This document shows, one piece after another, positions 26,293-40,081 of a stretch of DNA of 64,000 nt; the stretch's first letter is position 1; each line of letters opens with the position of its first letter. The position numbers and the translations under genes are program-made. The notes beneath the pieces were generated by a model, which saw only the letters and a list, made by a program, of their open reading frames with translations, ran no database searches and was not told where the DNA came from. The DNA lies in NCBI GenBank assembly GCA_964412635.1, contig CAYPPQ010000003.1, forward strand, positions 24,491 to 88,490, read 5' to 3'. The stretch is from an uncultured Planctomycetia bacterium. GTDB taxonomy: Bacteria; Planctomycetota; UBA8108; UBA1146.

Positions 26293-28323
26293 TCACTTCT
26301 TTTGATGCAGTTGTAAGTGGTCGATGGAGACGGCATTGAGCGGGTCATTGCGCAATCCCACATGGTAGTCGTGACAGGTGGAGCAACTGGAGTCGATCTC
26401 TTGACCATGACAGTCGGTGCAACGGTCTCGAGTGATCGCCTTCCAGTCATTGCTGTGCTGCGGATCGTTGGCGAATTGATGACAGTCGAGGCAGTTCATG
26501 CTCGATCCTTGAAGTACGTGAGGACGGTGGGAAAAGCGGGTCGATTGCGGGGACGATACGGATCGCATCGACTCTGGTGACCAGTGAACCCGAGGGTTGC
26601 CATACTTCACCCCGAGGTGGCAGGAAGCGCAGTTGCCTGCGGCCAGCGGGCCAAAGACCTGCTCGAATACCGACTCGGAATCCGGGTCTGAACCACCGTA
26701 TCTGGCTTCGATGGTGGCCCATGCTTCGATGAACGGATCAGCATGCTGAACCGGCCTGTAACGAATCGATGGCTCCTCGAAATACCATCCTCCAGCAGTG
26801 GCCCATTTCTCCACATCCACGTTCTTCATCGAGGTATCCGGTTCGTCAGTGGACAGATCTTCATCTTCGGAATCATCGAGTAGAAGATCGTCCTCTTCAT
26901 CCCCGGAATCATCGAGTAGAAGATCGTCCTCTTCATCCTCGGAATCATCGAGTAGAAGATCGTCCTCTTCATCCTCGGAATCATCGAGCAGGAGATCATC
27001 CTCTCCAGCCTCTTCTTGCGTCGATTCCTGGTCTTCAGCGCTGTCCGACCGATCATCCTGCTCCTGTGGAGCAAACCAATCGGAGCTGGCCTTCATCAGT
27101 ACCGATCTGGGCAGCTGTCCTGACAGCTGGGCAATCTGTGAACGATCGAGCCCATCCCGGACGGAAGGGGCGACGAGAGAGCGAGTGAAGAGTTCGAGAT
27201 CGGAACTCAGTGCGTCGGCAACTCCCTCCTTGAAGTGACGGGCCAGTTGTTGCGCTGCCGACAGAACTTCATCGCTTTGATCTTCCAGTGAGTAAAGTTC
27301 CACCGCTGACAGTTGTTCCAGCTTCGAGTTGTCGATCCCTGAACTTCGAATCCAGCGCAGGCTCCATGCGGTGGGAAACTCTGAACCGCCATAGGGCCAG
27401 CTTCCGATGTCCTTTTCCGCCTCAAGAAGTGAACCGGTGTCGAGTGCGGGGATGGAAAGGACCTCGATCCCTTTCTGCTTCCCGGTGGCCTCGTGTCCAC
27501 TGATGGAATCGGCATGGCAGGGCGCGCAGGAAACCTCGAAGGGTTTCACGATCATTCGTTGCTGATCTGGTCCGAGATCATGGCAACCATTACATGAAGC
27601 GGGAGCCAGGTCCGGAAATTCATCGAAGTGCTTTTTGGCGTGGTCGGCATGGTCGAAAATGATTGCTCGCTCCGGTTGACCAAAACTACTGCTGAACTCC
27701 GGGTGACCATCGGACAGCGAAGCGAATCGCTGCTGGTGACACGATTGACAGCTCGAGTCGGAGACCTGCGTCACAGGATCGCTGGGATGGTGTTCCCCAT
27801 GACAGCGAGCGCAGGCAACATCTTGAACCGGAGTTGCCGTTGCGGGGGAACCGTTGAATAGCGACTTCAGATGGTCAGGAGATACTGAATGAGGATCTCC
27901 CCCGAATTCTCCGAGGTCGTGGCATTCGAGGCACTTCATCGAGGCATGGGGATCTCCCTGCCCCATCACTCCTCGGCGAACAAACTCCATCGATGCCATT
28001 TCCACCGGCTGATGGCAATCGGCACAACTGAGATGTGCATGAAAGGAACTCAGCGAGCCAGGGTCGACTAACGATTCATCGTTTCCGGAGATGGCCATCA
28101 TGACGAGACCGCAGGTCAGCAAGACTGCTCTTCGAAAGTACTTTTGCCGTGTCTTTCCCTCGCTGGGCACGGGGATACATGGAGATTCGGCATCGGGGCA
28201 GCGACCGCTCGGTGACGGACCGGCGCAACACTGACCATCCCTGTTGCCGCACTGATAGGGTTGATCAGGGCGGAGGTAGTTGACGAATCGAGCATCGAAA
28301 GGGCTGCGCTTCTCCCGCATCAT
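26293..28323 (-). CDS. Decaheme c-type cytochrome with an internal acidic (DDLLLDDSEDEE)x4 repeat
   Basis: Ten CxxCH motifs: CADCH, CLECH, CARCH, CQSCH, CNGCH, CAPCH, CASCH, CLDCH, CTDCH, CSTCH. N-terminal hydrophobic anchor YFRRAVLLTCGLVMMAI. Last gene of the operon; its start overlaps the upstream stop (ATGA). Confidence 0.8.
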   Translation of the reverse strand: MMREKRSPFDARFVNYLRPDQPYQCGNRDGQCCAGPSPSGRCPDAESPCIPVPSEGKTRQKYFRRAVLLTCGLVMMAISGNDESLVDPGSLSSFHAHLSCADCHQPVEMASMEFVRRGVMGQGDPHASMKCLECHDLGEFGGDPHSVSPDHLKSLFNGSPATATPVQDVACARCHGEHHPSDPVTQVSDSSCQSCHQQRFASLSDGHPEFSSSFGQPERAIIFDHADHAKKHFDEFPDLAPASCNGCHDLGPDQQRMIVKPFEVSCAPCHADSISGHEATGKQKGIEVLSIPALDTGSLLEAEKDIGSWPYGGSEFPTAWSLRWIRSSGIDNSKLEQLSAVELYSLEDQSDEVLSAAQQLARHFKEGVADALSSDLELFTRSLVAPSVRDGLDRSQIAQLSGQLPRSVLMKASSDWFAPQEQDDRSDSAEDQESTQEEAGEDDLLLDDSEDEEDDLLLDDSEDEEDDLLLDDSGDEEDDLLLDDSEDEDLSTDEPDTSMKNVDVEKWATAGGWYFEEPSIRYRPVQHADPFIEAWATIEARYGGSDPDSESVFEQVFGPLAAGNCASCHLGVKYGNPRVHWSPESMRSVSSPQSTRFSHRPHVLQGSSMNCLDCHQFANDPQHSNDWKAITRDRCTDCHGQEIDSSCSTCHDYHVGLRNDPLNAVSIDHLQLHQKK
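26869..27012. repeat. 4 x 36-bp tandem repeat inside the decaheme cytochrome gene, encoding (DDLLLDDSEDEE)n
   Basis: The unit ggaatcatcgagtagaagatcgtcctcttcatcctc is repeated head to tail with 1-2 substitutions. Confidence 0.85.
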
Positions 28324-29147
28324 ACCCCCGTTCCTGCAGCATATGCGTGAACCAGGATCACGTGTAGCAACACCAGGATTACCAAGGCACCTGTGCCCGG
28401 GAGATGGATCAGCAGCCAGCCTCTCATCCAGAAATGGAGTCGAAGTTGACGATCGAGTGCCGACTTTCTCAGCACGATGTGATGAATCTGTTCCTCGATA
28501 CTGTTGGATTCTTGTTTCGAGAAGTTGCTGTGCCGCGAATAGGAATCTGCCACCGCATCTGGTAGGTACTGGTTTTCCTTGCTCCCCGAGGAGTGGGAGT
28601 TTGCCTTGCTGAACAGGAATGGGCGAAGAATTGACAGATAGACCTTCTCGTATTCGCTGTGAGGTGCTGACTTCCGGAGTTCGATGATCAACGAATCGGC
28701 TTCTTTGACAAGGGAGGCGATCTCATGATCGATCCTTGCAGGAAGAAGATGAATCGACTCCCGCAACGGTTGAGGAATCGTTCTCATCAATATCCAACCG
28801 GTGAAACCGCTCATCAGGATGACGGAGTATCCGATCCAGAGCAGCGATTCAAAGGTGCCTGTCGGCAAACGAAAATCGGTGTGTTCAAGGAAGAAGTAGC
28901 CACTGAGAACTCCCGTAGTCAGGTGCAGCATCAACCAGGTTGAGGTTTTGCCGAGCGGAAGGAAGGGCAACTTCTTACGGATCCCATAGACGCATAGCAA
29001 CACGAAGCTGCCGAGAAGAAACCAGCCACTGGCCCTGGCAGGATCACCGAGGGATCGGTCTGCCTCGAGAATGCAGAAGCGAAAGGCGATGAACGCAACC
29101 ACCAGAAAGATGATCAAGGAAGTGGAAGGAGTCCTCAGGTTGATCAT
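28320..29147 (-). CDS. Integral membrane protein, ~5 TM with conserved His in the helices; candidate di-heme cytochrome b / quinol-interacting anchor
   Basis: ATG 29147 (MINLRTPSTSLIIFLVVAF) overlaps the upstream stop in TGATG, with GGAGG 8 nt upstream. His residues lie in predicted TMs (LMLHLTTG, LLIHLPG, LLHVILVHAY). The function is inference. Confidence 0.55.
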   Translation of the reverse strand: MINLRTPSTSLIIFLVVAFIAFRFCILEADRSLGDPARASGWFLLGSFVLLCVYGIRKKLPFLPLGKTSTWLMLHLTTGVLSGYFFLEHTDFRLPTGTFESLLWIGYSVILMSGFTGWILMRTIPQPLRESIHLLPARIDHEIASLVKEADSLIIELRKSAPHSEYEKVYLSILRPFLFSKANSHSSGSKENQYLPDAVADSYSRHSNFSKQESNSIEEQIHHIVLRKSALDRQLRLHFWMRGWLLIHLPGTGALVILVLLHVILVHAYAAGTGV

Positions 29148-30862
29148 CAGGATCTCCTCCACAAGCGATCGGAAAAATCGCGCTCGCCGAAGTTGACCCT
29201 GTGAAGTGCATCATGAGGACAGGCATTGACACATGCTGGCCCCGAGGGCTGGTCGATGCACAGATCACATTTCGTTGCCCGCAGGATGGGACTTCCAGAT
29301 TTCGAGTCTATGACGGGTCTTCCCCTGGAGTCTTTGATCTCGACCGTGCGGATGTTGTCGTAGGGGCAGGCGTCAACGCATGTCGCGCAACCGATACAGG
29401 TGGAATCCTGGATGACGACGTTACCGCTGGAGTTTTCACGATGAATGGCTCCAGTCGGGCAACCCACGAGACAGACTGGATCGCAACAGTGCATGCATGC
29501 GGAAGCGACCATCAACTGGGCATGTCTTTGCCCCTCCCTGATGAAACGTGGATTCCCATCATGGGTGATGGCGCAGGCTTTGACGCAATCGTCGCAATCG
29601 GTACATCGATCCATGTCGATGACCATCGTCTGATTCCCATTGATGGTTCTGTGATTGACGATGAAATCGAGGAACTCCCGGGAGACATTGAGTTTGTCTC
29701 CGCGCATGCCGAACTCTTCAAGGAGGAGGCTTTCGGAAATGTGGGGAAGGATCAACTCCTTGACCGCTGGAGTGGAGATCATCAAGAGATCAGTAGCGCC
29801 GATGCAGTGCAGGCTGCTGGAAGCGATTGGCGTTTCCCCTGAGTTCTTGGCTTCGATCAGTTCCTTTAGTCCGAAGAGATCTCCGGGTCTCAGGTAGTCG
29901 ACGGTGTCGGTGACCCCTCGACTGTTTCTGGATAATCGTGCAAAGCCGTTGAGTAGCACGTAGATGCCGTCGAGCCTCCAGCCTTTCTTGATGACGAGAG
30001 TCTCCTGATCGAGAATTTTATCTCGGTTTTCCTCTGTTGTTCGAATCCCGTGATTCCAGTTCTCGTTGCCGTGTCGTTCAAAGATGAAAACATCCATCAG
30101 CTTTGATCTGTCGACAGGAGGGATCATTTCAAAGAGCGGGAGGTCAGAAAAGAGGTTGCCCAGAGATCTGGATCTGACTTCTTCTTCGAGGTATTCCCTG
30201 AACATCGGCGATTTCCTGCAGATGTCACGGACCCCTTGCCACCGTAGTTCCAGAACTTCCGTTTTTTCGGCGGTGAAGACGGTGGCTGTTCTCGATGATC
30301 TTCTGAGGGCGGCGATTTCTCCGATCGACCTTCCGATTGGAATCTCTACAGATTTGAACTCCTCGATGAACTGATCGAGGTCGTAGGGAACCAGCCGCGA
30401 TTGTTTGATCACCTCCTTTTCATCGATGGTGGAGGTACTGACGCGATCGACATTTCTCGATTCGGTATGGCTGGAGTTGTTCCACAACTGCGAGAGAGCC
30501 TGCCACCAGGTTCGCTTTGGTGGCGCGCTTCTGGTTTGAAGCTTTTCTTCGCCTGCGGGATCGATGAGGACATGGGTGGAACCAGCCAGGACGAAAAATA
30601 CCGATCCGCCATAGTCACCCTTACGGATGATGATCTCGCCAGGTTGATAGCTGACCAATCGGGCGTCGTTTTTGAGGATGTCGACGATGGTCGCACCACT
30701 GGCTTGAAAGTCAGTGCATGCGAAGGAAAGGGCCGTCCCTGTCAGGGCCCAATCAACCGTCTGGTCCGGGAGTAGTTCATCGCCGAAGGGCTGGTCCCAG
30801 CGTCTCGGGCGATCTACTTTGACTTCCTGTTCATCCATGGCGGGTATTTGTTCCAGGTTCAC
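29147..30862 (-). CDS. Fusion protein: tandem cyclic-nucleotide-binding (cNMP) domains + NrfC/DmsB-like ferredoxin with four [4Fe-4S] Cys motifs
   Basis: Phosphate-binding cassette GEIAALRRSSRTATVFTAE, and a second degenerate cNMP domain. C-terminal CTDCDDCVKAC, CMHCCDPVCLVGCP, CIGCATCVDACP, CDLCIDQPSGPACVNACP. GTG start with an AGGAG upstream, overlapping the upstream stop by 1 nt. Confidence 0.75.
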   Translation of the reverse strand: MNLEQIPAMDEQEVKVDRPRRWDQPFGDELLPDQTVDWALTGTALSFACTDFQASGATIVDILKNDARLVSYQPGEIIIRKGDYGGSVFFVLAGSTHVLIDPAGEEKLQTRSAPPKRTWWQALSQLWNNSSHTESRNVDRVSTSTIDEKEVIKQSRLVPYDLDQFIEEFKSVEIPIGRSIGEIAALRRSSRTATVFTAEKTEVLELRWQGVRDICRKSPMFREYLEEEVRSRSLGNLFSDLPLFEMIPPVDRSKLMDVFIFERHGNENWNHGIRTTEENRDKILDQETLVIKKGWRLDGIYVLLNGFARLSRNSRGVTDTVDYLRPGDLFGLKELIEAKNSGETPIASSSLHCIGATDLLMISTPAVKELILPHISESLLLEEFGMRGDKLNVSREFLDFIVNHRTINGNQTMVIDMDRCTDCDDCVKACAITHDGNPRFIREGQRHAQLMVASACMHCCDPVCLVGCPTGAIHRENSSGNVVIQDSTCIGCATCVDACPYDNIRTVEIKDSRGRPVIDSKSGSPILRATKCDLCIDQPSGPACVNACPHDALHRVNFGERDFSDRLWRRS

Positions 30863-31896
30863 TACTCCTGTTTTACAGATCCCATCTTGTAGTCCTCTTC
30901 CTTTGCAATCAGTGCGTCTATTGCAGAGAGGGTACTGCCATCATTCAGTTTTGCGAAAGCATTCAGCGAAGCCGTGATCTGTTCCGAAGCAGCAGCAATT
31001 GCATCTTGATTCTTCAGACTCATCTTCAGATCGACGATGGCGGTCATCGCCTCCTTGATCTGGGGGTTATCGAGGACTTCATTCACGGCCTTGAGTCTCT
31101 TTCTCAGGAGGCTGAACCGCTTGGCGTTCTTGATCGCGTAAGTCCCCTTCGCCGTTGCGGTGGCCACTGCTTTGAGAACGATTTCCATCTCTGCCATGAT
31201 GCCGATGATGTGGAACAACCTCTGCTTCTCGATGGTTGCGAGTTTGTTTTCTTTGCCCTTGGAGTAGAAGTTGTTGTGGCGAACGATCCCCTGGCTCCAC
31301 GAAACCAGTTCGAACTCACTTCCAGAGGAGTGTTTTCCAGTGTTGACAAGGTCCTCGTGGGGCACGACGTGGCAACTGACGCAGTTCCTGGCGATGCTCA
31401 GTACCATCGATGGTCGTAGCATTCCCGCCGCTTCGGAATCGCTCCAGCGAGTTGCGATCTCTTCATCTGTCTCCTCGCCCTCTTCCTTGTCACTGAACTC
31501 GCCGTGCCGCTTCATCCAGTCCGCAGCAGCCCCGTGACACGATTCACAGGAGATACCGTTGGAGATCAGATGGGTCTTCTCCTCCGACTGTTGAGCGGTG
31601 GCATGACAGTTGATACAGAGGCTTTCTCTGGTGATTCGAGCGATGCCCATCTTCTTGGCGATGGCTTGGCCTTCCTTGCTGCGGTGCACTCCTGTGATGG
31701 ACTCGTGATGTGGAGTCTTTTCCCAGATGCCTCCGGAGTGCTTGTGACATTCGATGCACTCGGCAGGCCCCATCACCTTCGAGGAATCAAAACCGGGGCC
31801 GGTGGGGAGATCTTCCCGCGCCCTCTCGGCTGCACCGAAAGAGATTGCGGTGAGGACAATGGTGATCGCAATAGTAGTGGAGGGTTTTTTCTTCAT
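30862..31896 (-). CDS. Tetraheme c-type cytochrome, secreted or membrane-anchored
   Basis: CIECH, CINCH, CESCH, CVSCH. Signal MKKKPSTTIAITIVLTAISFGAA from ATG 31896; the alternative ATG is 31935. Long alpha-helical C-terminal half. Confidence 0.75.
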   Translation of the reverse strand: MKKKPSTTIAITIVLTAISFGAAERAREDLPTGPGFDSSKVMGPAECIECHKHSGGIWEKTPHHESITGVHRSKEGQAIAKKMGIARITRESLCINCHATAQQSEEKTHLISNGISCESCHGAAADWMKRHGEFSDKEEGEETDEEIATRWSDSEAAGMLRPSMVLSIARNCVSCHVVPHEDLVNTGKHSSGSEFELVSWSQGIVRHNNFYSKGKENKLATIEKQRLFHIIGIMAEMEIVLKAVATATAKGTYAIKNAKRFSLLRKRLKAVNEVLDNPQIKEAMTAIVDLKMSLKNQDAIAAASEQITASLNAFAKLNDGSTLSAIDALIAKEEDYKMGSVKQE

Positions 31897-31941
31897 CCGT
31901 TGTGTTCTCCCTTGATTCGGTCTAACAACATCCATGATGTT

Positions 31942-33225
31942 TCAAACATCCAGAATCACATCAGAGGTTGGTCTCGCCACGCATGTAAGGCAATGTCCTC
32001 GTGAGATGTCTACCTCGGGTTCTTCGTCATACTTTACCTTGCCCTCCTGGAGAGGGACTTCACAGGTTCCACAGTTTCCTGACCGGCAGCTGCTATCGAT
32101 GTGAATTCCGGCTTCTTCCGCCAGCTCCAGTATCGAACTGGTGCCATCCCACAGGAGAGATTGATTGCTGCTGTTGAATCGTATTGTCAACTTCTCGGCG
32201 GATGTAGAGGGCTCCGTCGCTGCCGTCGATTCAGGGGAAGGCTTTTTTCGAGTGGATGCGGGACCAAAAGCCTCCATCAAGATACTGTCGGATGAGACTC
32301 CCGATTTTTCCAGCGCAGGGACAATTGCAGACATCATCGGCGGTGGGCCACAGATGTAATACTGGAGGTCTCCTCCGCCGGTGATCTGGACGAGGCGCTC
32401 GACATCGAGGAATCCGCTGTGGTAGGCAGGATCGTCTGAGGTGAGGTCCTTGCCCTCCTTCTGATGACTGTAGAAGACATGGAGATCCAGATTGCTTCTG
32501 TCGGAGATGAGCTGCTGGATGTGGTCGCGGAATGGATGTTCCTCGCGATTCCTGACAGCATGGATGAAGAAGCACTTTCGATCGATCTTCTCGTTGCAGA
32601 TGGTCTCGAGCATGCTCAACAGAGGAGTGACGCCGATGCCCCCTGCCACGAAGACTGCTGGACGGGGATCGTTGCGGTCAAGGATGAATCGACCTGCAGG
32701 ACTGCTCACCTCGAGTAGATCACCGACGGCGATGCTGTGGTGCAAGTAGGAGGAGCCCTGCCCTGGAGGCGCATCCGGCTGGTCGGGAGGTGGCGGAATT
32801 TTCTTCACGGTGATCTTGTAGAGATTCGCATCCCCGGGGGCACTGGAGAGAGAATAGTTGCGGATGGTGGGTTTGGTTTGCCCGGGGATTCGAAACTGAA
32901 ATCCGAGGTGCTGTCCCGGTTCAAAACTGGGTAACGCTTCGCCATCGATGGGTCGAATCAAGAAGGAACAGATGTCATCTGCCTCTGGCAACTTTTCCTC
33001 GAGAATGAAACGGCGATAGCCGCGCCATGCTCTACTCGACTTTGGTGTGCCGGAAGAAACAGGAACTTGTTCGAGTTCCTCCTGCAATTTCACTGCAGAG
33101 AGTTCCATCAACTGGTTGGTTTTCTTGAACGCGATGATGGAAGAGAACATCGAGAACAAGGCCTCCAGCAGGACCAGGAGTACGATTCCTGATCCGATCC
33201 AGAAAATGATTTCGGCGGCATTCAA
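31942..33225 (-). CDS. Membrane-anchored ferredoxin-NAD(P)+ reductase-like oxidoreductase with C-terminal plant-type 2Fe-2S domain (PDR/VanB-like architecture)
   Basis: N-terminal TM IIFWIGSGIVLLVLLEALF. FAD motif RNYSLSS. NAD(P) motif AVFVAGGIGVTPLLSML. C-terminal CRSGNCGTCE...C. TTG start. Confidence 0.8.
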   Translation of the reverse strand: MNAAEIIFWIGSGIVLLVLLEALFSMFSSIIAFKKTNQLMELSAVKLQEELEQVPVSSGTPKSSRAWRGYRRFILEEKLPEADDICSFLIRPIDGEALPSFEPGQHLGFQFRIPGQTKPTIRNYSLSSAPGDANLYKITVKKIPPPPDQPDAPPGQGSSYLHHSIAVGDLLEVSSPAGRFILDRNDPRPAVFVAGGIGVTPLLSMLETICNEKIDRKCFFIHAVRNREEHPFRDHIQQLISDRSNLDLHVFYSHQKEGKDLTSDDPAYHSGFLDVERLVQITGGGDLQYYICGPPPMMSAIVPALEKSGVSSDSILMEAFGPASTRKKPSPESTAATEPSTSAEKLTIRFNSSNQSLLWDGTSSILELAEEAGIHIDSSCRSGNCGTCEVPLQEGKVKYDEEPEVDISRGHCLTCVARPTSDVILDV

Positions 33226-33228
33226 TCG

Positions 33229-34671
33229 TCAGAACCTCACCAGAAACTCGGTTCGAATCCCATTGTTGGTGGCACCGCCCTCGTCCATCTTCGTGTAGCC
33301 ATCGCATTGCAGCATCACTCTATTCGAGAGTTTTTCCTGGAATCGGATTCCCACCGCTCCCGAAGCGGGGTCACTTCCCTCCGTCGGTGTTCTTCCACCC
33401 AGTTCGACGATGAAGTTACGTTCTCCTCCGGAAAGGACCCACTGGTAGCCGACTGCGCCGCCGAAGGAGCGATCTGCTCGATTGCCCAGTGCTGGCTTGA
33501 AACTGCCCAGTCCTGCCGCAGCGAAGAGGATGCCGGCCTTGCCCAGGGGACCACCCTTGGCCGGTGATCTTCCCGCTGAGGAGAACTCATCGATGCCGAG
33601 GAAGAGAGTGCCGTAGGCGTTGTCATCGGTCCCAAAAGGAGTGGTCGATGCTTCGGCGAAGAACAGCATCCCGTCACTGACCTGAGCGTTGTCCGCTTCC
33701 GATGCGGATGAAGCACACCAGCGAATTGTAGTGTTGAAGGTGCGCCCCCATTTCTTGATCCGTTGCGATGATCCGAGTCCAGCGAAGATCCCATCACCTC
33801 CCTGGTCGATCGGCGCAGTGACGGCGACGAGATCGGCATCGATGGTACTGGCGTAGGTGTCGGTCTCGGTGGAAATCCCGAACAACCTCGACTGTGTGGC
33901 AAGCTTGTTGTCATCGCGGTGCAGCTGTCCCCAGCCATAGATCATGGTGAGGCGCATATTGGACGCACCAGTGAAGGGGATGAAACGAGTGACTCCGAAA
34001 GCGTCCATGTTGTCGTTGACCAGGATGCCATCTTGCAGATCAACACCCCATCTGCCGAAACTGAAACCGTAATCGAGTTTCTTGTTTCCGGCCGGATCAA
34101 TTCGAGGGAACAACTCGCTGAGTTCTCCTTCGAAGAAGAAGGTGGTCAACTCGAGGCTGGTGTTGTCGTTCCAACCTTCGTTGGCTTCCGGTTCGATGGT
34201 GTAGCCGGTGAACTGGCCCTGGTCCTGAAGCGGTTGAAGTCCAACAAGAATTCTCTCGGTACCGGTGAATTGCAGGTTCGCAAAGAGATCGATGCGATTG
34301 GCCCATTCGATCTTCCGGTTGTCGTTCCCGGAGGGGTCGATGACGTTGATGCCGGTTCGTAGATTTCCGTAGACCCACAACGACGGTCGCCAGACAGCAC
34401 CGGTGGGAATGTCAAAGCCTCGCTCCAGTCGACCGGTGTCGAGAAAACCTGGACCCAGTTCCAGTAACGGTGGAGTCGGCTCGATCTGATCCTCGGGGAT
34501 CAGCGGGATGGGGTGATCTGGAAGTCTGCTGGGACTCTCTTCTTGCTGCGATAAGCCTTGCTGGCTGAAGAGGAGGAGTACCCCGCACAGGATCGTCACC
34601 TGCAGGCGCTGGAAGGGGGAAGAACTGCTCCACCCAGGAGATCTGGCGGGTTGGATCTGCACTGGATTCAA
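33229..34671 (-). CDS. Putative outer-membrane beta-barrel protein (porin-like) co-transcribed with multiheme cytochromes
   Basis: 480 aa. N-terminal signal-like LQVTILCGVLLLFSQQGLSQQ. Alternating amphipathic beta-strand pattern throughout. The C-terminus ...EFLVRF ends in Phe. A 4-nt overlap with the pentaheme gene. Confidence 0.5.
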   Translation of the reverse strand: MNPVQIQPARSPGWSSSSPFQRLQVTILCGVLLLFSQQGLSQQEESPSRLPDHPIPLIPEDQIEPTPPLLELGPGFLDTGRLERGFDIPTGAVWRPSLWVYGNLRTGINVIDPSGNDNRKIEWANRIDLFANLQFTGTERILVGLQPLQDQGQFTGYTIEPEANEGWNDNTSLELTTFFFEGELSELFPRIDPAGNKKLDYGFSFGRWGVDLQDGILVNDNMDAFGVTRFIPFTGASNMRLTMIYGWGQLHRDDNKLATQSRLFGISTETDTYASTIDADLVAVTAPIDQGGDGIFAGLGSSQRIKKWGRTFNTTIRWCASSASEADNAQVSDGMLFFAEASTTPFGTDDNAYGTLFLGIDEFSSAGRSPAKGGPLGKAGILFAAAGLGSFKPALGNRADRSFGGAVGYQWVLSGGERNFIVELGGRTPTEGSDPASGAVGIRFQEKLSNRVMLQCDGYTKMDEGGATNNGIRTEFLVRF

Positions 34672-36560
34672 GATCCTTCTCCTTTCGGCGTGGGGATCTC
34701 CACGACAGTGGACTTTTCGGCGACCACCACGGCTCCTTCCACCAGGCGTTCGCCCAGTTCGCGGGGGGACATTCCGTAGTCAAAGCCAACGTGCATCGTC
34801 TGGTGGATCAGATTGACAGGAACTGCCTGGGAGACGAAGCGCGCCTCGACACTGTAGGGGCCGTTCCCTGTCAGCAAATCTGCATCGACATGGTAGCGTG
34901 CGGTTCGGTACCCGAGAGGCTCGATGCCGCGACGGTGTTTTCTCATCCCTTTCGGATGACCGTAGATATTGTTGGGCCTCGATGCCGGTCGGATGAAGGG
35001 AAGAGCCGTCACAGAACTGTTGATGGTGAGGACCTGCTCGCGGTCTCCGCCTCTGATGTTTCTCGACATGAACTTGGACTGCAGGTTGAACAGTTGCTCA
35101 TCTAACTCGATTTCGCCACTGCGGACATAGAGTGAGAAGCTATCCCTGACATCTCCATTTGGATCTCGATCTCCAGAGACGAAGACCACTTCTCCGCCGG
35201 AATCCTTGACCTCGATCTGAACCACGAATAATCGTTCCGCATCGAATCCTGTCGGGAGGTTGTGACCGGTGGTGAGGTTCTTGACATCGATTTCGAGATC
35301 GATCCCGTCTTCGCTGGCATCGGTCACGCGGATGTCGGAGAGGCCGAATCCTCGCTTCAGCACGGCGATTCGTTGCTGCTTGGCCCACTCGAGCAATTCG
35401 AGTTGCTCATCGATGATCGCCCTGGCTGCTTCTCTATCGTCGATTGAGAACCACTCATCGGGGAACTCGAAATCAGCGGGACAGTTCTCCTCGAACTCCT
35501 CGGTTCCCCAACCAGCCTCGACATCGAAGAGGAGCCAACCTGCCAGTGACTTCAACTCGTTCGCCTTCCGGTTGACGGGGAAGATGCCCGGGTGGATCAG
35601 GGAGTAATCAGGGCCGGCGAAGAAATGATTGGTGAGTTTTCGATCGGCGGTTGGATTTCCGTCAACCTCTGCTGCTGGGCCGAAGTTATAACCGCTGGGA
35701 ATGCCCTGCTCCTTTCCCATGTGGCAGTCGTTGCACGTGATCCCTTCCGCTGCGGCAGGGGAGTTTCTGTACTCGCTGATCAGTTCGTGCACCTTGAGAC
35801 CGTTCGGAGCAAAAACCTCGTGACAGCTGCCACAGAAGGCCGAATCTGAGATCTCCGGGAATTTCTCGATCTCGCCATGGATGGCGCGGCCCACATCTTC
35901 ACGATCGGTGTTGACCTTGAAGGTCTTCGGATCGTTGAGGATCCGGGCCAGTTCATCGTTGCCGTTGGGACCCTTGACTGAATCGTAGACATCTCCCTGA
36001 TCGATTCCGAGTCGCCCCGACACCTTTCGGTACGGCGCACTCATCCGATGGCAGGTGACACAGGTGATCCCCTCCCTCGATGCGGGGTGGCGATCCAGGT
36101 TGGAGATGCTGAAGGCTTCTCCCATGTCGGAGCCCACAGGAGCATGACAGCGGAGACAGAAGTCACCATTGGTGCTGCTGGTCCCGGCATTCATGGCGTT
36201 CTGCATCGACATCATCAAGGGACTCAGTTGCGAGTATGCATGTTGTGACACTGACCATTCCCTGTACTGGGTCGGATGACACAGGGCACATTCGTCAGCC
36301 GAGGGGAAGTTGCTCTTGGCAAATATCTTGGCGTGCGCATCGTCCTGGGTTGGTTTCACTTCCGGTGTTTCGGACGCCTCATCGAGAAGGTCGTCATCGA
36401 GGAGGTCATCATCGAGAAGATCGTCATCGAGGAGGTCGTCTTCGACAGGTTGTGGATCGGGGGGCGGATCCTGGGCGGATAATGAATTCAGTGGAAACAA
36501 CATGATGAAGACACTGAAGACGAAACCGCAGAAGAAGAGCCTCTGTAATGGAATGCCCAT
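34668..36560 (-). CDS. Pentaheme c-type cytochrome with N-terminal (DDDLL)n acidic repeat; first gene of the 7-gene redox operon
   Basis: Signal MGIPLQRLFFCGFVFSVFIMLFPLNSLSA, then DDLLDDDLLDDDLLDDDLLDE. CALCH, CLRCH, CVTCH, CGSCH, CNDCH. ATG 36560 with AGAGGTG upstream. Confidence 0.8.
   Translation of the reverse strand: MGIPLQRLFFCGFVFSVFIMLFPLNSLSAQDPPPDPQPVEDDLLDDDLLDDDLLDDDLLDEASETPEVKPTQDDAHAKIFAKSNFPSADECALCHPTQYREWSVSQHAYSQLSPLMMSMQNAMNAGTSSTNGDFCLRCHAPVGSDMGEAFSISNLDRHPASREGITCVTCHRMSAPYRKVSGRLGIDQGDVYDSVKGPNGNDELARILNDPKTFKVNTDREDVGRAIHGEIEKFPEISDSAFCGSCHEVFAPNGLKVHELISEYRNSPAAAEGITCNDCHMGKEQGIPSGYNFGPAAEVDGNPTADRKLTNHFFAGPDYSLIHPGIFPVNRKANELKSLAGWLLFDVEAGWGTEEFEENCPADFEFPDEWFSIDDREAARAIIDEQLELLEWAKQQRIAVLKRGFGLSDIRVTDASEDGIDLEIDVKNLTTGHNLPTGFDAERLFVVQIEVKDSGGEVVFVSGDRDPNGDVRDSFSLYVRSGEIELDEQLFNLQSKFMSRNIRGGDREQVLTINSSVTALPFIRPASRPNNIYGHPKGMRKHRRGIEPLGYRTARYHVDADLLTGNGPYSVEARFVSQAVPVNLIHQTMHVGFDYGMSPRELGERLVEGAVVVAEKSTVVEIPTPKGEGS
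36371..36430. repeat. 4 x 15-bp tandem repeat encoding (DDDLL)n within the pentaheme cytochrome gene
   Basis: The units are catcgagaaggtcgt / catcgaggaggtcat / catcgagaagatcgt / catcgaggaggtcgt. Confidence 0.85.
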
Positions 36561-36770
36561 GGTCACCTCTTTCCGATCAGGGGAAGAGTATTGAACCGAT
36601 GTCTTTCAAGAGGTATGTCGAAGTGATCACTCAAGAGATTCGATTCGATGTTCAACTCGGCTGCATACTACCAAGGCTGCCACGTCATGAGATGTTCCTT
36701 CTTCAGAATCAACCGTCCATCGCAGGTGGGTCGTAACTGGCAGCAGTGGCTCCTGCATCACAGTGCTGCT

Positions 36771-36794: not shown

Positions 36795-36805
36795 GAGGAG
36801 TAGTG

Positions 36806-38122
36806 ATGATTCCCCGGTTTCCCCGGTTACAGGAAGCCCTTGCTGGTGGTCCACTCTGGCAATTGAGACTATTTGCCATGGTGACGGCGTTCTGCGTCTA
36901 TTTCTCGATGTACGCCTTTCGGAAGCCATTTGCAGCGGGAACCTATTCGGGAGCGGAGTGGGCGACTACCGGTCTGGGACTGAAGACGGTACTGGTGATC
37001 GGTCAGATCTTTGGTTACACCCTCGCGAAGTTTCTCGGCTCTCGAATCTGTTCCCAGGCGACCCGAGAACATCGGAGTCGCTGGTTGTTCGGACTGATCG
37101 TTGCAGCGGAATCCTGTCTGTTGTTGTTCGGAATGTTGCCCGATTTCTTGAAACCTGTGGCGATGTTTCTCAACGGTTTATCCCTCGGGATGATCTGGGG
37201 TCTGGTCGTGCGTTACCTGGAGGGTCGAAGGGCCAGCGAGGTGTTACTGGCCGGCTTGAGCTGTTCCTTCATCATCGCCAGCGGAGTGGTCAAGGATGTC
37301 GGGCGCTGGTTGATGTCCGATCATGGAATTCCCGAGATGTGGATGCCCGCCGCGACCGGATTGATCTTCTTGCTGCCCTTCTGGATCGCCTTGACCCTGC
37401 TCGATCATCTTCCCGAGCCGGACGCGCAGGATCAGCAGGAGAGATCGAAACGCCCCGAGATGGACTCCCACGATCGACGGGTTTTTCTTCGCACCTTTCC
37501 CCTCGGTTTTGCCCTGCTGCTGGTGGTGTACACACTGGTCACGGCATTTCGCGACTATCGAGATAACTTCGGAGACGAGATCCTCACCGAACTGGGATAC
37601 GGCGAGGCGAAGGGGATCTTTTCCAGCATCGAAGTCCCGGTGGCGTTCGTGGTGATCAGCGCACTGGCCCTCTTCAGCCTTGTACCTGGGGGAAGAAGGG
37701 GGTTGCTGGCTCTTTTCGCCATGCTGGGCGCAGGAGCAGTGACGATGTTGGTGTCGACGGAGTTGTTCTCGCAGGGCTCCCTCACCGGCAAGGAATGGAT
37801 GCTTGCCATCGGGATCGGATCCTATCTGGTCTATGTACCCTTCGGCTCGGTCCTCTTTGAACGCATCGCCGCCACCTTGAGGTTCAAGGGAAATGCGGTC
37901 TTTGCCATCATGGTGGCAGATGGCGTCGGCTATCTTGGATCGACGATCCTGCTGATCTATCAGGATCTCGGGTATTCGAGCGATGAGACCTCTGTCAATT
38001 TCATGACGGTCCTGACCCGGGTCACTGCGGTGGTGTGTGTGGTTGGATTTGCTGCTGCGGCGATCTACTTCGATCGACATTACATCCGAGGTCGAGAATC
38101 GACACCCGATGATCAGAAGTGA
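36806..38122 (+). CDS. Polytopic membrane protein, MFS-like transporter fold, family not recognised
   Basis: ~12 predicted TM in two 6-TM halves separated by a charged loop (DAQDQQERSKRPEMDSHDRR). GAGGAG lies 5 nt before ATG 36806. Divergent from the redox operon. Confidence 0.6.
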   Translation: MIPRFPRLQEALAGGPLWQLRLFAMVTAFCVYFSMYAFRKPFAAGTYSGAEWATTGLGLKTVLVIGQIFGYTLAKFLGSRICSQATREHRSRWLFGLIVAAESCLLLFGMLPDFLKPVAMFLNGLSLGMIWGLVVRYLEGRRASEVLLAGLSCSFIIASGVVKDVGRWLMSDHGIPEMWMPAATGLIFLLPFWIALTLLDHLPEPDAQDQQERSKRPEMDSHDRRVFLRTFPLGFALLLVVYTLVTAFRDYRDNFGDEILTELGYGEAKGIFSSIEVPVAFVVISALALFSLVPGGRRGLLALFAMLGAGAVTMLVSTELFSQGSLTGKEWMLAIGIGSYLVYVPFGSVLFERIAATLRFKGNAVFAIMVADGVGYLGSTILLIYQDLGYSSDETSVNFMTVLTRVTAVVCVVGFAAAAIYFDRHYIRGRESTPDDQK

Positions 38123-38131
38123 ATCCTACGA

Positions 38132-40081
38132 TTACCGTGGTGGAATGCTGACCACCGTTGATTTCTCGGCGATCACGATGGCACCATCGACCAGCTTCTT
38201 GGCCAGTGCTCGAGGTGAGAGTCGATAATCGAATCCGACATGCATCGTGTGAACGATCAGGTTCACCGGCACCGATTGAGAGATGAACTGCGTCTTGATC
38301 GAATACGGCCCCGTCCCGGTGAGCGATTCTCCAGCGACACGATATGCGGCAGTTCGATGACCCAGTGGCTCGATGGAACGGTGGTGTTTTCTTACCCCTC
38401 TGGGATGGCCATAAACGTTGTTGGGCCTGGAGGCGGGACGGATGAAGGGGAGGGCCGAGATCGAGTTGTTGGTGGTGAGTACCTGTTCTCGCTCTCCTCC
38501 ACGCACGTTTCTCGTCAGTACTCTGGATTGCAGATTGAACAGCTGTTCATCCAGTGGAATCTCACCGTTACGGACATAGAGGGACAAGCCATCCCTGACA
38601 TCTCCATTCGGGTCACGGTCCCCTGAGATGAAAACGAGGTCTCCTCGTGAATCGGTGACTTCGACCTGAAGAACAAATATCCGCCCGATCTTGTCGGCGG
38701 GGAGATTGTGTCCACTGGAGAGGTTCTTCACGTCGATCTCGAATTCGATCCCCTCCTCACCCGCCGAAGTGATACGGATCTCGGAAAGGCCGAAGCCTCG
38801 CTGCATCATCTCGATCCGCTGTTGCTTGGCCCACTCGAGTAAATCGAGCTGCTCATCGATGATCTCACGTGCGCTGTATCGATCATCGATGGAGTTCCAT
38901 GCTTCGGGAAATTCGAACTCTTCCGGGCAATCGTCTTCGAATTCGTCGGTACCCCAGCCGCTTTCCACATCGAAGAGGCACCATTCGGGAATCGATTTGA
39001 GATCCTGGGCCCGCTTGTTGATGGGGAATACACCAGGGTGGAGGAGGGAGTAGTCCGGGCCTGCGAAGAAATGATTCGTCAACTTCCTGGTGGAAGTCTC
39101 TTCTGCAGCCACCACCGCACCGGGGCCTTGCTGGTAACCGGAGGGGATTCCCTCTGTCTTACCCATGTGGCAATCGTTGCAGGAGATTCCCTGGGCCGCT
39201 GCGGGTGAGTTTCGATACTCGCTGAGAACATCATGAACACGGAATCCGTTCGGCGTCTGGACCTCGTGGCAGCTTCCGCAAAAAGCGGGATCTTCAAGTT
39301 CGGGAAACTTCTCTACCTCAGCGTGAATGTCGCGACCGACATCGTCGCGATCAGTATTTACCTGGAATGATTCTGGATCGCCGAGGACGCGCATCATTTC
39401 GGCATTACCCTGGACACCCTTCACCGGATCGAAGAGATCTCCCCTGTCGATTGCCAGCCTTCCCATGACTTTTCGGTAGGGAGCACTCATGCGATGGCAG
39501 ACGACACACGTAACTCCCTCTCTGGAGATGGGATGTCGTTCGATGTTCGAGAGACTGGAGGGCTCACCGATGTCGGATCCGACGGGCGTATGGCAGCGAA
39601 CACAAAAATCACCGGTTGTGGAACTGGTTCCCTTGTTCAGGGCGATTTGCATCGACAACATCAGCGGACTCAACTGAGAGTATGCGTGCTGAGAAACGGA
39701 CCACTCTCGATATTGCTTGGGGTGGCAACTTGCACATCGGTGTGCCGGGGGGAATTCGTTCTCTGCAAGGAGAAGCGCATGAGCCTCGAGAGAATTGTCG
39801 TCGGATCCCTGGTGGGCAGGTGTATTCTCTGAAGGGTTCTCGGGTGAAGGTTTTTCATCAGCGAGTAAGTCATCATCGAGTAAGTCATCATCGAGCAGGT
39901 CATCATCGAGCAGATCATCTTCCAGCAGATCATCCTCCTCGACAACCGGTGCTGGAGGAGGATCCTGAGAATGGGCCTGCTGTTGTGATCCAAGTTGGTT
40001 CTCTGATGGTCCCGCAAGGATGAAGAGACCGAGCAGGGTCCAGATGAGTGCAGTGTTGTTTGGCGGCTTGCTGGCGGGCAT
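38132..40081 (-). CDS. Pentaheme c-type cytochrome, paralog of 34668..36560, with N-terminal (DDLL)n repeat
   Basis: Co-linear ~70% identity with the first paralog. CASCH, CVRCH, CVVCH, CGSCH, CNDCH. Signal MPASKPPNNTALIWTLLGLFILAG from ATG 40081, with an AAGGA upstream. Confidence 0.8.
   Translation of the reverse strand: MPASKPPNNTALIWTLLGLFILAGPSENQLGSQQQAHSQDPPPAPVVEEDDLLEDDLLDDDLLDDDLLDDDLLADEKPSPENPSENTPAHQGSDDNSLEAHALLLAENEFPPAHRCASCHPKQYREWSVSQHAYSQLSPLMLSMQIALNKGTSSTTGDFCVRCHTPVGSDIGEPSSLSNIERHPISREGVTCVVCHRMSAPYRKVMGRLAIDRGDLFDPVKGVQGNAEMMRVLGDPESFQVNTDRDDVGRDIHAEVEKFPELEDPAFCGSCHEVQTPNGFRVHDVLSEYRNSPAAAQGISCNDCHMGKTEGIPSGYQQGPGAVVAAEETSTRKLTNHFFAGPDYSLLHPGVFPINKRAQDLKSIPEWCLFDVESGWGTDEFEDDCPEEFEFPEAWNSIDDRYSAREIIDEQLDLLEWAKQQRIEMMQRGFGLSEIRITSAGEEGIEFEIDVKNLSSGHNLPADKIGRIFVLQVEVTDSRGDLVFISGDRDPNGDVRDGLSLYVRNGEIPLDEQLFNLQSRVLTRNVRGGEREQVLTTNNSISALPFIRPASRPNNVYGHPRGVRKHHRSIEPLGHRTAAYRVAGESLTGTGPYSIKTQFISQSVPVNLIVHTMHVGFDYRLSPRALAKKLVDGAIVIAEKSTVVSIPPR
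39856..39945. repeat. 6 x 15-bp tandem repeat (tcatcatcgagNaNg) encoding (DDLLx)n in the paralogous cytochrome
   Basis: The sequence shows tcatcagcgagtaag, tcatcatcgagtaag, tcatcatcgagcagg, tcatcatcgagcaga, tcatcttccagcaga, tcatcctcctcgaca. Confidence 0.8.

What the first reader, a model, noticed from the sequence alone, without database searches (positions are those of the whole stretch)
26869..39945. Acidic DDLL-type tandem repeats shared by three multiheme cytochromes
Three separate cytochrome genes carry in-frame, DNA-level tandem repeats encoding alternating Asp/Glu-Leu blocks. The decaheme gene has (DDLLLDDSEDEE)x4 as 4 x 36 bp at 26869-27012. The pentaheme gene has (DDDLL)x4 as 4 x 15 bp at 36371-36430. 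The paralog has (D/E)DLL x6 as 6 x 15 bp at 39856-39945. Repeat number differs between the paralogs, which hints at slipped-strand expansion and contraction. A strongly anionic, Leu-spaced segment next to heme domains could bind cations or mineral surfaces, or tether the protein in the cell envelope. I know of no such motif in Mtr/Omc cytochromes.
Basis: seen in the sequence. Interest (0 to 1): 0.6.

Follow-up and report, generated by a model that had tools for sequence, protein, structure and literature searches.

The report
Conserved acidic di-leucine arrays in cytochromes
Three multiheme cytochrome genes carry in-frame tandem repeats encoding strings of an Asp-Asp-Leu-Leu peptide motif; the motif is conserved across many bacterial phyla in two cytochromes of one uncharacterised seven-gene electron-transfer operon, its copy number varies between near-identical strains, and it most likely acts as a multi-copy docking or tethering element in the periplasm.

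Summary
Three minus-strand genes carry in-frame DNA tandem repeats encoding DDLL-type blocks: a decaheme (A, 26293-28323), a pentaheme (B, 34668-36566) and its paralog (C, 38132-40144). The repeats are not a local oddity. B and A are the first and last genes of a 7-gene operon, in the order B, 18-strand outer-membrane barrel, FAD/NAD/2Fe-2S reductase, tetraheme, cNMP-binding/4Fe-4S protein, putative di-heme-b membrane protein, A. The operon is conserved in Planctomycetota, Alpha- and Gammaproteobacteria, Verrucomicrobia, SAR324 and other phyla. In most of these operons B carries [D/G]DDLL motifs directly after its signal peptide, and A carries D[D/G]D[I/L]L motifs between hemes 6 and 7. Spacing and copy number vary. 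The Leu pair is about 97-100% conserved, even where DNA periodicity has decayed. Copy number is polymorphic within clusters of at least 90% identity: A has 2, 3 or 4 units with otherwise identical sequence, and B has 3-8. The best reading is slippage-prone arrays of a selected short linear motif in disordered, strongly acidic periplasmic segments, acting as multivalent docking or tether elements. The partner is unidentified. Cation or mineral binding and a pure spacer role remain rivals. I found no description in the literature.

The parts
34668..36566 (-). Gene B: a pentaheme c-type cytochrome (632 aa). It has a Sec signal peptide, an acidic DDLL tail, a 5-heme domain and a C-terminal Ig-like domain. 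It is the first gene of the operon.
   Evidence: It has 5 CxxCH motifs and matches Pfam Cytochrome_C554. phmmer matches T. tepidum pentaheme c552 5ZE8 at E 9.7e-12. 5ze8 is also the best Foldseek hit. More than 3378 homologs were found.
36384..36443 (-). B array: EDDLL(DDDLL)x3, 4 x 15 bp, at aa 42-61. It begins about 10 residues after the predicted signal-peptidase site (SLSA|QDPPP).
   Evidence: TRF reports 36379-36445, period 15, 4.5 copies. Regex confirms the peptide. The AF2 model has pLDDT about 35 and no secondary structure for residues 21-69. The same 90% cluster holds variants with 4, 6 and 7 copies.
33229..34671 (-). Outer-membrane beta-barrel (480 aa). It matches no Pfam or NCBIfam family and ends in Phe. 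Its start overlaps the stop of B by 4 bp, and it is always adjacent to B.
   Evidence: The AF2 model has pLDDT 84 with 18-19 strands. Foldseek matches MOMP, OprD/Occ and AlgE 18-strand barrels at E 3e-12 to 1e-8. It lies next to B in all 83 loci.
31942..33225 (-). Membrane-anchored FAD/NAD(P)H/2Fe-2S reductase (427 aa).
   Evidence: Pfam matches FAD_binding_6, NAD_binding_1 and Fer2. There is an N-terminal hydrophobic segment. The gene is conserved in the operon.
30862..31935 (-). Tetraheme cytochrome (357 aa) with a basic C-terminal helical domain (aa 201-357, pI 9.4). This domain is a candidate reader of the acidic motifs.
   Evidence: It has 4 CxxCH motifs and matches Cytochrome_C554. It is the only basic periplasmic module in the operon. 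Its mean net charge is +4.9 across 52 operons.
29147..30862 (-). Cytoplasmic protein with cNMP-binding-like domains fused to a multi-[4Fe-4S] ferredoxin domain (571 aa).
   Evidence: Pfam matches cNMP_binding and Fer4 families. NCBIfam shows HydN/DmsB-like similarity.
28320..29162 (-). Membrane protein (280 aa) with four conserved His (H80/H94 and H253/H267). It is a putative di-heme-b transmembrane electron carrier.
   Evidence: Conserved columns were taken from an alignment of 51 homologs. It matches no Pfam or NCBIfam family.
26293..28323 (-). Gene A: a decaheme cytochrome (676 aa). It has a conserved Cys-rich cytoplasmic N-terminus, one weak TM segment, 6 hemes, a helical region, the acidic array and then 4 hemes. 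It is the last gene of the operon.
   Evidence: It has 10 CxxCH motifs. It is syntenic in Halofilum, Oceanospirillum and most of the 80 genome loci. The array always follows heme 6 and precedes the conserved W..GGWY motif.
26860..27003 (-). A array: (EDDLLLDDS[E/G]DE)x4, 4 x 36 bp, at aa 441-488. It sits inside a 91-residue segment with 47 Asp/Glu and 2 Lys/Arg.
   Evidence: TRF reports 26858-27012, period 36, 4.3 copies, 93% matches. Otherwise identical proteins carry 4, 3 or 2 units.
38132..40144 (-). Gene C: a paralog of B (66% identity) that lies outside the operon and has no barrel of its own. Database versions start at Met22 (nt 40081).
39863..39937 (-). C array: (E/D)DDLL x5, 5 x 15 bp, at aa 70-94.
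   Evidence: TRF reports 39855-39934, period 15, 5.3 copies. Regex confirms the peptide. A related 90% cluster of C-type paralogs holds 4, 6, 7 and 8 copies (cluster 5).

Best explanation
The three repeats are slippage-prone, in-frame DNA arrays. Each encodes multiple copies of one short linear peptide motif: two acidic residues, then Leu-Leu (or Ile-Leu), then a small or acidic residue. The motifs are embedded in strongly acidic, disordered periplasmic segments.

The motif array is a conserved and selected feature of two cytochromes of one seven-gene operon. In the pentaheme B and its paralog C it forms a free N-terminal tail that starts right after signal-peptide cleavage. In the membrane-anchored decaheme A it forms the linker between the 6-heme and 4-heme modules.

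The inferred mechanism is as follows. The acidic residues keep the chain extended and the Leu pairs exposed. Each unit can then make a weak electrostatic-plus-hydrophobic contact with a common partner surface, so several units together give multivalent, dynamic docking. This would hold B and the distal module of A together at the outer end of an NAD(P)H-to-periplasm electron chain. In A the array would also act as a flexible tether.

Copy number changes by replication slippage or unequal recombination, which tunes reach and avidity.

Shown: the motif, its conservation, its positions, its polymorphism and the operon. Inferred: that it docks to something, and the identity of the partner. Candidates are the basic C-terminal domain of the co-encoded tetraheme cytochrome, the barrel, or cation-bridged self-association.
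For: 1. The repeats are real and in frame.
2. The B family has more than 3378 homologs. Nearly all of the 120 best homologs carry 2 to more than 10 xDLL motifs between the signal peptide and heme 1.
3. The operon B-barrel-reductase-tetraheme-FeS-membrane-A is conserved in Halofilum, Oceanospirillum and most of 80 genome loci from about 10 phyla.
4. A homologs carry D[D/S/G][I/L]L[G/A/S] arrays at the same place, after heme 6 and before W..GGWY.
5. In the motif logo for B, positions -2 and -1 are D at 75% and 82%, and the Leu pair is 97% and 100% L. Spacing varies from 5 to about 20 residues and spacer composition is free.
6. In 28 of 48 B arrays with 3 or more motifs, no DNA tandem repeat covers at least half the array. 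The peptide motif, not the DNA repeat, is therefore what is conserved.
7. Arrays in B and A co-occur: both present in 33 loci, B only in 5, A only in 1, neither in 3 (Fisher p = 0.018). In addition, a variant operon with a short A has none in either protein.
8. In one lineage (L008) both proteins switched to DDML. B uses ATG-TTG and A uses ATG-CTY, so this is a parallel change at protein level and not gene conversion.
9. Among 3552 ORFs of 83 loci, arrays occur only in B/C (36) and A (26), apart from one marginal hit.
10. B homologs have AXA cleavage sites directly followed by the first motif. The tail is predicted disordered. The segments carry 22-47 Asp/Glu against 2-3 Lys/Arg.
11. Copy number is polymorphic: 2, 3 or 4 in A with zero other differences, and 3-8 in B clusters.
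Against: No partner was identified. No alignment column of the barrel, tetraheme, FeS or membrane protein tracks the presence of arrays. The tetraheme basic domain is equally basic in operons without arrays. The inferred barrel lumen has about as many conserved acidic as basic residues. Some operons work without arrays, including those of Nitrospina, Geminicoccales, Rhodothermales and Acidobacteriota. The co-occurrence statistics are confounded by phylogeny. B uses LL and proteobacterial A uses IL, so the two arrays may not share exactly one binding site. No binding was tested, and no complex model could be run.
Confidence: 0.5

Rival explanations
1. The segment is a polyanionic cation- or mineral-binding element. 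The Asp/Glu-rich arrays would chelate Ca2+, Mg2+, Fe3+ or Mn, or adhere to metal-oxide surfaces. This could concentrate substrate for the cytochromes or rigidify the segment.
For: The net negative charge is extreme. The carriers are overwhelmingly marine or saline, where Ca2+ and Mg2+ are high (titles). The operon looks like an electron-export chain that could serve metal reduction. G-D-D-L-L-G-G superficially resembles the GxDxLxG core of RTX Ca2+-binding repeats (from memory).
Against: The most conserved positions are the two Leu (97-100%), which chelation does not require. The spacing is irregular, from 5 to 20 residues, unlike any known Ca2+-binding repeat. No Ca2+-binding Pfam family matched. 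B has only a Sec signal and A is anchored in the inner membrane, so both arrays are periplasmic and have no evident access to minerals.
Confidence: 0.15
2. The segment is a pure flexible tether or entropic spacer, as with the (PT)x linkers of Geobacter PgcA. The arrays would only set distance and flexibility between modules, or keep the proteins soluble. Copy-number change would tune length.
For: The array in A lies exactly between two heme modules. Length is hypervariable between strains. PgcA shows that repeat linkers enable 'tethered diffusion' electron transfer (PMC11520253).
Against: In B and C the array is a free N-terminal tail starting at the signal-peptidase site. It links nothing. 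A spacer would not need an invariant Leu pair flanked by Asp, nor a parallel L-to-M change in both proteins.
Confidence: 0.15
3. The segment is an export, maturation or pro-region signal. The acidic-LL units would be recognised transiently by a periplasmic chaperone, the heme-attachment machinery, the adjacent barrel or a protease. The tail might then be removed, as reported for the N-terminal extension of PioA (from memory).
For: The motif starts at the mature N-terminus of B. B is translationally coupled to a dedicated 18-strand barrel. In Halofilum the ccm operon is adjacent.
Against: The array in A is internal and cannot be a removable pro-peptide. The tetraheme protein of the same operon has no array. 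There is no consistent linkage to ccm genes in the window. An 18-strand barrel cannot pass a folded holo-cytochrome.
Confidence: 0.1
4. The repeats are neutral low-complexity DNA expansions or assembly artefacts with no function.
For: The DNA units are highly similar (84-93%) and copy number is unstable. Short-read assemblies can mis-size repeats.
Against: The motif is conserved across phyla at fixed positions in two families, including in arrays without DNA periodicity. Many independent assemblies and isolate genomes carry it. The arrays of 60-155 bp are no longer than, or about the length of, typical reads (typical read length is my own figure, not measured here).
Confidence: 0.05

Closest known systems
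Pentaheme cytochrome (PHC) family: Thermochromatium tepidum cytochrome c552 (PDB 5ZE8), Geobacter ExtKL and GSU2801
   Same: B and C have five CxxCH motifs, sequence similarity to 5ZE8 (E 9.7e-12), 5ze8 as the best fold hit and a C-terminal Ig-like beta domain. ExtK is encoded with a porin (ExtI), as B is with its barrel (PMC11976967).
   Different: B scores far below the NCBIfam ExtKL cut-off (34 versus 250 bits). It is about 200 aa longer than c552. B has an AXA-type signal-peptidase site rather than an obvious lipobox. B carries the acidic DDLL tail, which I did not check for in c552 or ExtK. It sits in a different operon, with an NAD(P)H reductase, an FeS protein and a b-type membrane protein.
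Geobacter PgcA (PT)x repeat linkers ('tethered diffusion')
   Same: Both are tandem low-complexity repeats within a multiheme cytochrome that separate heme modules and are flexible. This matches the array in A between hemes 6 and 7.
   Different: The PgcA linkers are neutral, proline-rich and extracellular, with no embedded hydrophobic motif. Here the segments are polyanionic with a conserved Leu pair, are periplasmic, and in B/C form a free tail rather than a linker.
Acidic N-terminal domain of Paracoccus denitrificans cytochrome c1 and the acidic 'hinge' subunit (Qcr6/UQCRH) of mitochondrial bc1 (from memory; not retrievable in the paper library)
   Same: Both are highly acidic, probably disordered segments placed N-terminal to a c-type heme domain. 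They have been proposed to assist docking of a basic redox partner or to assist supercomplex formation.
   Different: The c1 and hinge segments have an Ala/Glu/Pro-rich composition without a DDLL-type motif or known copy-number polymorphism. They belong to a single respiratory complex rather than to two proteins of a trans-envelope operon. No sequence relationship was tested.
RTX / beta-roll Ca2+-binding nonapeptide repeats (GGxGxDxUx)
   Same: Both have Gly/Asp-rich units containing one large aliphatic residue, in tandem arrays in exported proteins.
   Different: RTX repeats have a strict 9-residue period and a GGxG turn. Here the periods are 5 and 12 residues in the window and 5-20 elsewhere. 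There are two adjacent aliphatic residues, and no HemolysinCabind match.
Porin-cytochrome conduits (MtrAB, PioAB/MtoAB, Pcc; Cyc2 fused porin-cytochrome)
   Same: Both combine a multiheme cytochrome gene coupled to an outer-membrane barrel gene with further periplasmic and membrane cytochromes. The likely role is electron transfer across the envelope.
   Different: This barrel has about 18 strands, like OprD, AlgE and MOMP. That is too narrow to sheathe a multiheme protein as the MtrB barrel does (from memory, 26 strands). The cytochromes are unrelated to MtrA/MtrC beyond generic heme-motif hits. The electron input appears to be a cytoplasmic NAD(P)H/FeS module.

Membership tests
PHC family (T. 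tepidum c552 / ExtKL / GSU2801) | Five CxxCH heme-binding motifs in one domain | tested here: met
   B and C each have 5 CxxCH motifs.
PHC family (T. tepidum c552 / ExtKL / GSU2801) | Detectable sequence and fold similarity to the solved member 5ZE8, including the C-terminal Ig-like domain | tested here: met
   phmmer gives E 9.7e-12 over the heme domain plus a weaker match in the beta domain. Foldseek ranks 5ze8 top at E 1.7e-8. The heme part of the model has low confidence.
PHC family (T. tepidum c552 / ExtKL / GSU2801) | Passing the curated NCBIfam ExtKL equivalog model (NF040886) | tested here: not met
   B scores 34.2 bits against a cut-off of 250. B is a distant relative and not an ExtKL ortholog.
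RTX beta-roll Ca2+-binding repeats | Nonapeptide GGxGxDxUx with a strict 9-residue period | tested here: not met
   Periods are 5 aa (B, C) and 12 aa (A) in the window. Family-wide spacing is 5-20 aa. There is no Pfam hit.
PgcA-type tethered-domain cytochromes | A repeat linker lies between two heme-binding modules | tested here: inconclusive
   This is met for A, where the array lies between hemes 6 and 7. It is not met for B and C, where a free N-terminal tail follows the signal peptidase site.
PgcA-type tethered-domain cytochromes | (Pro-Thr)n composition | tested here: not met
   The arrays are Asp/Glu/Leu.
Mtr/Pcc-type porin-cytochrome complex | A barrel wide enough (20 or more strands) to enclose a periplasmic multiheme cytochrome | tested here: not met
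   The AF2 model has about 18-19 strands. The best matches are 18-strand MOMP, OprD and AlgE.
Mtr/Pcc-type porin-cytochrome complex | Cytochrome and barrel genes are adjacent and co-conserved | tested here: met
   B and the barrel are adjacent in all 83 loci. In the window they overlap by 4 bp.
Simple-sequence contingency (phase-variable) loci | Repeat-number changes switch the gene on or off through a unit length that is not a multiple of 3 | tested here: not met
   The units are 15 and 36 bp. All observed variants stay in frame.
Simple-sequence contingency (phase-variable) loci | Copy-number polymorphism among near-identical strains | tested here: met
   A has 4, 3 or 2 units with 0 other substitutions. 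B clusters have 3-8 units.
Short linear motif (SLiM) arrays in disordered regions | A few strongly conserved positions, variable flanks and spacing, and a location in a predicted disordered segment | tested here: met
   The tail has pLDDT about 35 and no secondary structure. The motif is retained without DNA periodicity in 28 of 48 arrays.
Short linear motif (SLiM) arrays in disordered regions | A defined binding partner or reader domain | not testable with these tools
   No complex prediction or binding assay was available. Covariation scans were negative.

The most novel reading that the evidence does not exclude
The DDLL/DDIL arrays are the assembly code of a previously undescribed trans-envelope electron-export machine that is widespread in marine, apparently largely aerobic bacteria. 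The proposed chain runs from cytoplasmic NAD(P)H through the FAD/2Fe-2S reductase and the [4Fe-4S] protein to a di-heme-b membrane protein, then to decaheme A, the tetraheme and pentaheme B at an 18-strand barrel. In this reading the multivalent acidic-dileucine tails of B and A bind one reader surface. That surface could be the basic domain of the tetraheme, or the tails could thread into the barrel. The binding would build a dynamic periplasm-spanning wire. Strain-level changes in repeat number would tune its reach.
Probability: 0.15. Interest if true: 0.8.

Novelty: new variant of a known kind. Interest (0 to 1): 0.55.

Why it matters
Repeat linkers and acidic domains are known in a few cytochromes. 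A conserved, multi-copy peptide motif shared by two different multiheme cytochromes of one operon appears not to have been described. It is conserved across about ten phyla and is hypervariable in copy number between near-identical strains.

The finding gives a concrete, testable handle on how an uncharacterised and widespread seven-gene electron-transfer system is physically assembled in the periplasm. The handles are synthetic peptides, LL-to-AA mutants and array deletions in cultured carriers. The system was found in at least 569 genome stretches (one genome per species is searched).

It would also add a bacterial periplasmic example of multivalent 'acidic plus hydrophobic' fuzzy docking, a principle known mainly from eukaryotic disordered regions. 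If the arrays turn out to bind cations instead, that would still explain a conspicuous feature of abundant marine Planctomycetota cytochromes.

Tried and rejected
1. I ran phmmer with the 40-aa C array against 1.84 billion cluster representatives and got 0 hits at E <= 0.001. A 65-aa synthetic array run through the word-indexed search found 375 candidates, none scoring E <= 10. Both results are uninformative because of low complexity and short length. The question of whether (DDLL)n occurs in unrelated families could therefore not be answered globally.

2. I scanned metagenome contigs with a degenerate DNA pattern for three DDLL units. The real in-frame cases were one B-family member (L199) and two unrelated proteins with DDLL-Pro arrays (L155, L134).

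3. I looked for a co-evolving reader by searching for alignment columns conserved only in array-bearing operons. There were none in the barrel or the membrane protein, and only a handful of weak ones in the tetraheme and FeS proteins.

4. I tested whether the barrel lumen is Arg-lined and so selective for polyanions, as in AlgE. It has 11 conserved Arg but about 10 conserved Asp/Glu as well, so this is not supported.

5. I tested whether the basic tetraheme C-terminal domain correlates with arrays. It is equally basic in array-less operons.

6. I tested gene conversion between the A and B arrays as the cause of the shared DDML variant. This is rejected because the codons differ.

7. I tested an amphipathic-helix or coiled-coil reading. 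This is rejected because the 5-residue period and the Gly/Pro-rich spacers give no consistent hydrophobic face (reasoning).

9. Literature searches for DDLL, for acidic repeats in cytochromes and for the operon found no description.

Full report
**Observation**

The window (57.9% GC) has three minus-strand ORFs with c-type heme motifs and in-frame tandem repeats.
- A (26293-28323, 676 aa, 10 CxxCH) carries (EDDLLLDDS[E/G]DE)x4 at aa 441-488. TRF reports 26858-27012, period 36, 4.3 copies, 93% matches, score 261.
- B (34668-36566, 632 aa, 5 CxxCH) carries EDDLL(DDDLL)x3 at aa 42-61. TRF reports 36379-36445, period 15, 4.5 copies.
- C (38132-40144, 670 aa, 5 CxxCH, 66% identical to B) carries five (E/D)DDLL units at aa 70-94. 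TRF reports 39855-39934, 5.3 copies.

**What the genes are**

B and C match Pfam Cytochrome_C554. By sequence they match the solved pentaheme cytochrome c552 of Thermochromatium tepidum (5ZE8, E 9.7e-12). That entry is also the top Foldseek hit of the B model. This places them in the 'PHC' family that a recent paper groups with Geobacter ExtKL and GSU2801 (PMC11976967). They are distant members: the NCBIfam ExtKL model scores 34 bits against a cut-off of 250.

The gene after B overlaps its stop by 4 bp. It has no Pfam or NCBIfam family. It is confidently predicted as a beta-barrel (pLDDT 84, 18-19 strands) and resembles the 18-strand barrels MOMP, OprD/Occ and AlgE.

**The operon**

Between this barrel and A lie four more genes:
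- a membrane-anchored FAD/NAD/2Fe-2S reductase;
- a tetraheme cytochrome;
- a cNMP-binding/[4Fe-4S] protein;
- a 280-aa membrane protein with four conserved His in two i,i+14 pairs, which suggests a di-heme-b carrier.

The same seven genes occur in the same order in Halofilum ochraceum and Oceanospirillum beijerinckii. They also occur in most of 80 loci retrieved from one-genome-per-species contigs. These come from Planctomycetota, Alpha- and Gammaproteobacteria, Verrucomicrobia, SAR324, Nitrospina, Acidobacteriota, Rhodothermia, Gemmatimonadota and Omnitrophota. At least 569 stretches encode a B relative. I found no paper describing this operon.

By inference, the operon moves electrons from cytoplasmic NAD(P)H across the inner membrane into periplasmic multiheme cytochromes next to an outer-membrane barrel.

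**The repeats are a conserved motif, not a local accident**

Nearly all of the 120 best B homologs carry 2 to more than 10 copies of xDLL between the signal peptide and the first heme. These homologs are 50-89% identical to B in the folded part. Their spacers differ widely, for example DDLLLQGAPPA, GDDLLSG and DELLTDE.

A homologs in other phyla carry D[D/S/G][I/L]L[G/A/S] arrays at one fixed place, after heme 6 and just before a conserved W..GGWY motif.

Motif logos show D at -2 (75%) and -1 (82%) and L at both core positions (97% and 100%) in B. In A the first core position is I (49%) or L (43%). Spacing ranges from 5 to about 20 residues.

In 28 of 48 B arrays with 3 or more motifs, no DNA tandem repeat covers half of the array. 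Selection therefore acts on the peptide.

Arrays in B and A co-occur: both present in 33 loci, B only in 5, A only in 1, neither in 3. A variant operon has an octaheme in place of the tetraheme, a short A and no reductase. It is found in Rhodothermales, Acidobacteriota and Gemmatimonadota, and it lacks arrays in both proteins.

In one planctomycete lineage both proteins use DDML instead of DDLL. The codons differ between the two genes (ATG-TTG versus ATG-CTY). This is a parallel protein-level change rather than gene conversion, and it points to a shared constraint.

Among 3552 ORFs in 83 loci, arrays of 3 or more motifs occur only in B/C (36) and A (26), plus one marginal hit.

**Instability**

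Within the 90%-identity cluster of A, three proteins are identical except for 4, 3 or 2 copies of the 12-aa unit. B-type clusters hold 4, 6 and 7 copies (the window's own cluster), and 3-8 copies in others. All differences are in 5-aa steps. All variants stay in frame, so length is modulated and expression is not switched.

**Where the arrays sit**

B homologs have standard signal peptides whose AXA sites are followed within 0-4 residues by the first motif. The array is therefore a free N-terminal periplasmic tail. AF2 gives it pLDDT of about 35 and no secondary structure.

A has a conserved Cys-rich N-terminus (C25, C32, C42, C49) and one weak TM segment. Its array is therefore a periplasmic inter-module linker. 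The array-bearing segments contain 22-47 Asp/Glu and only 2-3 Lys/Arg.

**Mechanism**

An invariant aliphatic pair flanked by acidic residues, free spacing, disorder and multiple copies are the signature of a short-linear-motif array. I infer multivalent, dynamic docking to a common surface. In A the array would additionally act as a flexible tether, analogous to the (PT)x linkers of PgcA (PMC11520253).

The partner is unknown.
- The only basic periplasmic module in the operon is the C-terminal helical domain of the tetraheme (pI 9.4; mean net charge +4.9 over 52 operons). It is equally basic where arrays are absent.
- The barrel lumen, inferred from strand alternation, has 11 conserved Arg but about 10 conserved acidic residues.
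- No column in any operon protein tracks array presence.

Cation binding, a pure spacer role and a transient export or maturation signal remain possible. Each of them fails to explain either the Leu conservation or the free-tail position in B.

**Limits**

Global searches for (DDLL)n in unrelated proteins failed for technical reasons. Specificity is therefore shown only within the window and the 83 loci. The co-occurrence statistics are not corrected for phylogeny. No binding or complex prediction was possible.

**Verdict**

The feature is real and conserved, and no description of it was found in the literature searched. I classify it as a new variant of the known theme of low-complexity segments in cytochromes. 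It is embedded in an uncharacterised, widespread operon. Interest is moderate to high.

Noticed in passing
window 26293-36566 (minus strand); L001 10001-21100; L002 8516-19688: A seven-gene operon is conserved across about 10 phyla and at least 569 genome stretches (one genome per species is searched). Its order is pentaheme, 18-strand barrel, FAD/NAD/2Fe-2S reductase, tetraheme, cNMP-binding/[4Fe-4S] protein, membrane protein, decaheme. No curated family matched four of its proteins (the pentaheme B, the barrel, the membrane protein and the decaheme A), and I found no paper on it. It looks like an NAD(P)H-to-periplasm electron-export chain (a split NOX-like logic).
   Followed up: partly
window 28320-29162 (-): This 280-aa membrane protein matches no Pfam or NCBIfam family. 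It has four conserved histidines in two i,i+14 pairs (H80/H94 and H253/H267) across 51 homologs. That pattern is typical of di-heme-b transmembrane electron carriers. In Oceanospirillum it is fused to the FeS protein (890 aa).
   Followed up: partly
window 28131-28323 (-), aa 1-64 of the decaheme: A has a conserved Cys-rich, basic N-terminal segment (Y16, R18, P19, C25, C32, C42, C49) before its single weak TM segment. The segment is conserved from Planctomycetota to Proteobacteria. It may be a cytoplasmic metal or FeS site contacting the FeS protein. JGI gene calls truncate it.
   Followed up: no
L058, L059, L062, L065, L070, L074, L081 (Rhodothermales, Acidobacteriota, Gemmatimonadota, 'Deltaproteobacteria'): A variant operon has a ~700-aa 7-8-heme (mostly octaheme) protein in place of the tetraheme and no reductase gene. 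Where A lies within the locus it is short (about 520-550 aa). B (and A where present) lacks acidic-LL arrays.
   Followed up: partly
L008 9845-11872 and 18076-20319: A planctomycete lineage uses DDML instead of DDLL in both the pentaheme (6 copies) and the decaheme (10 copies). The two genes use different Leu and Asp codons for the motif.
   Followed up: yes
L155 around 11207; L134 around 4727 (metagenome contigs): Two unrelated proteins carry long arrays of a different DDLL-Pro motif. One has SD[D/E]DLLPGM x13 in an apparently cytoplasmic protein with AT-hook-like GRGRPRK and a P-loop-like segment. The other has GYDDLLPP in about 20 copies. Neither contains hemes. Acidic-dileucine arrays therefore exist in other contexts.
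   Followed up: no
window 45227-45694 (-), repeat at 45240-45283: A small hydrophobic protein ends in an acidic Tyr/Glu/Asp tail (EELDEDYDEDEEYEEDEEEFA). The tail is encoded by an 18-bp repeat in 2.4 copies. It is a different kind of acidic low-complexity tail from the DDLL arrays.
   Followed up: no
window 36803-38122 (+): A DUF5690 membrane protein (E 1e-121) lies between B and its paralog C on the opposite strand. In relatives L004, L006 and L015 the C and B genes are also neighbours.
   Followed up: no
window 9332-12939: A polyphosphate kinase (PPK1) gene and a Ppx/GppA phosphatase gene lie adjacent on opposite strands (convergent). The rest of the window holds sulfatases, a GFO/IDH/MocA oxidoreductase and a 3-keto-disaccharide hydrolase domain protein. 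This fits a marine Planctomycetota genome.
   Followed up: no
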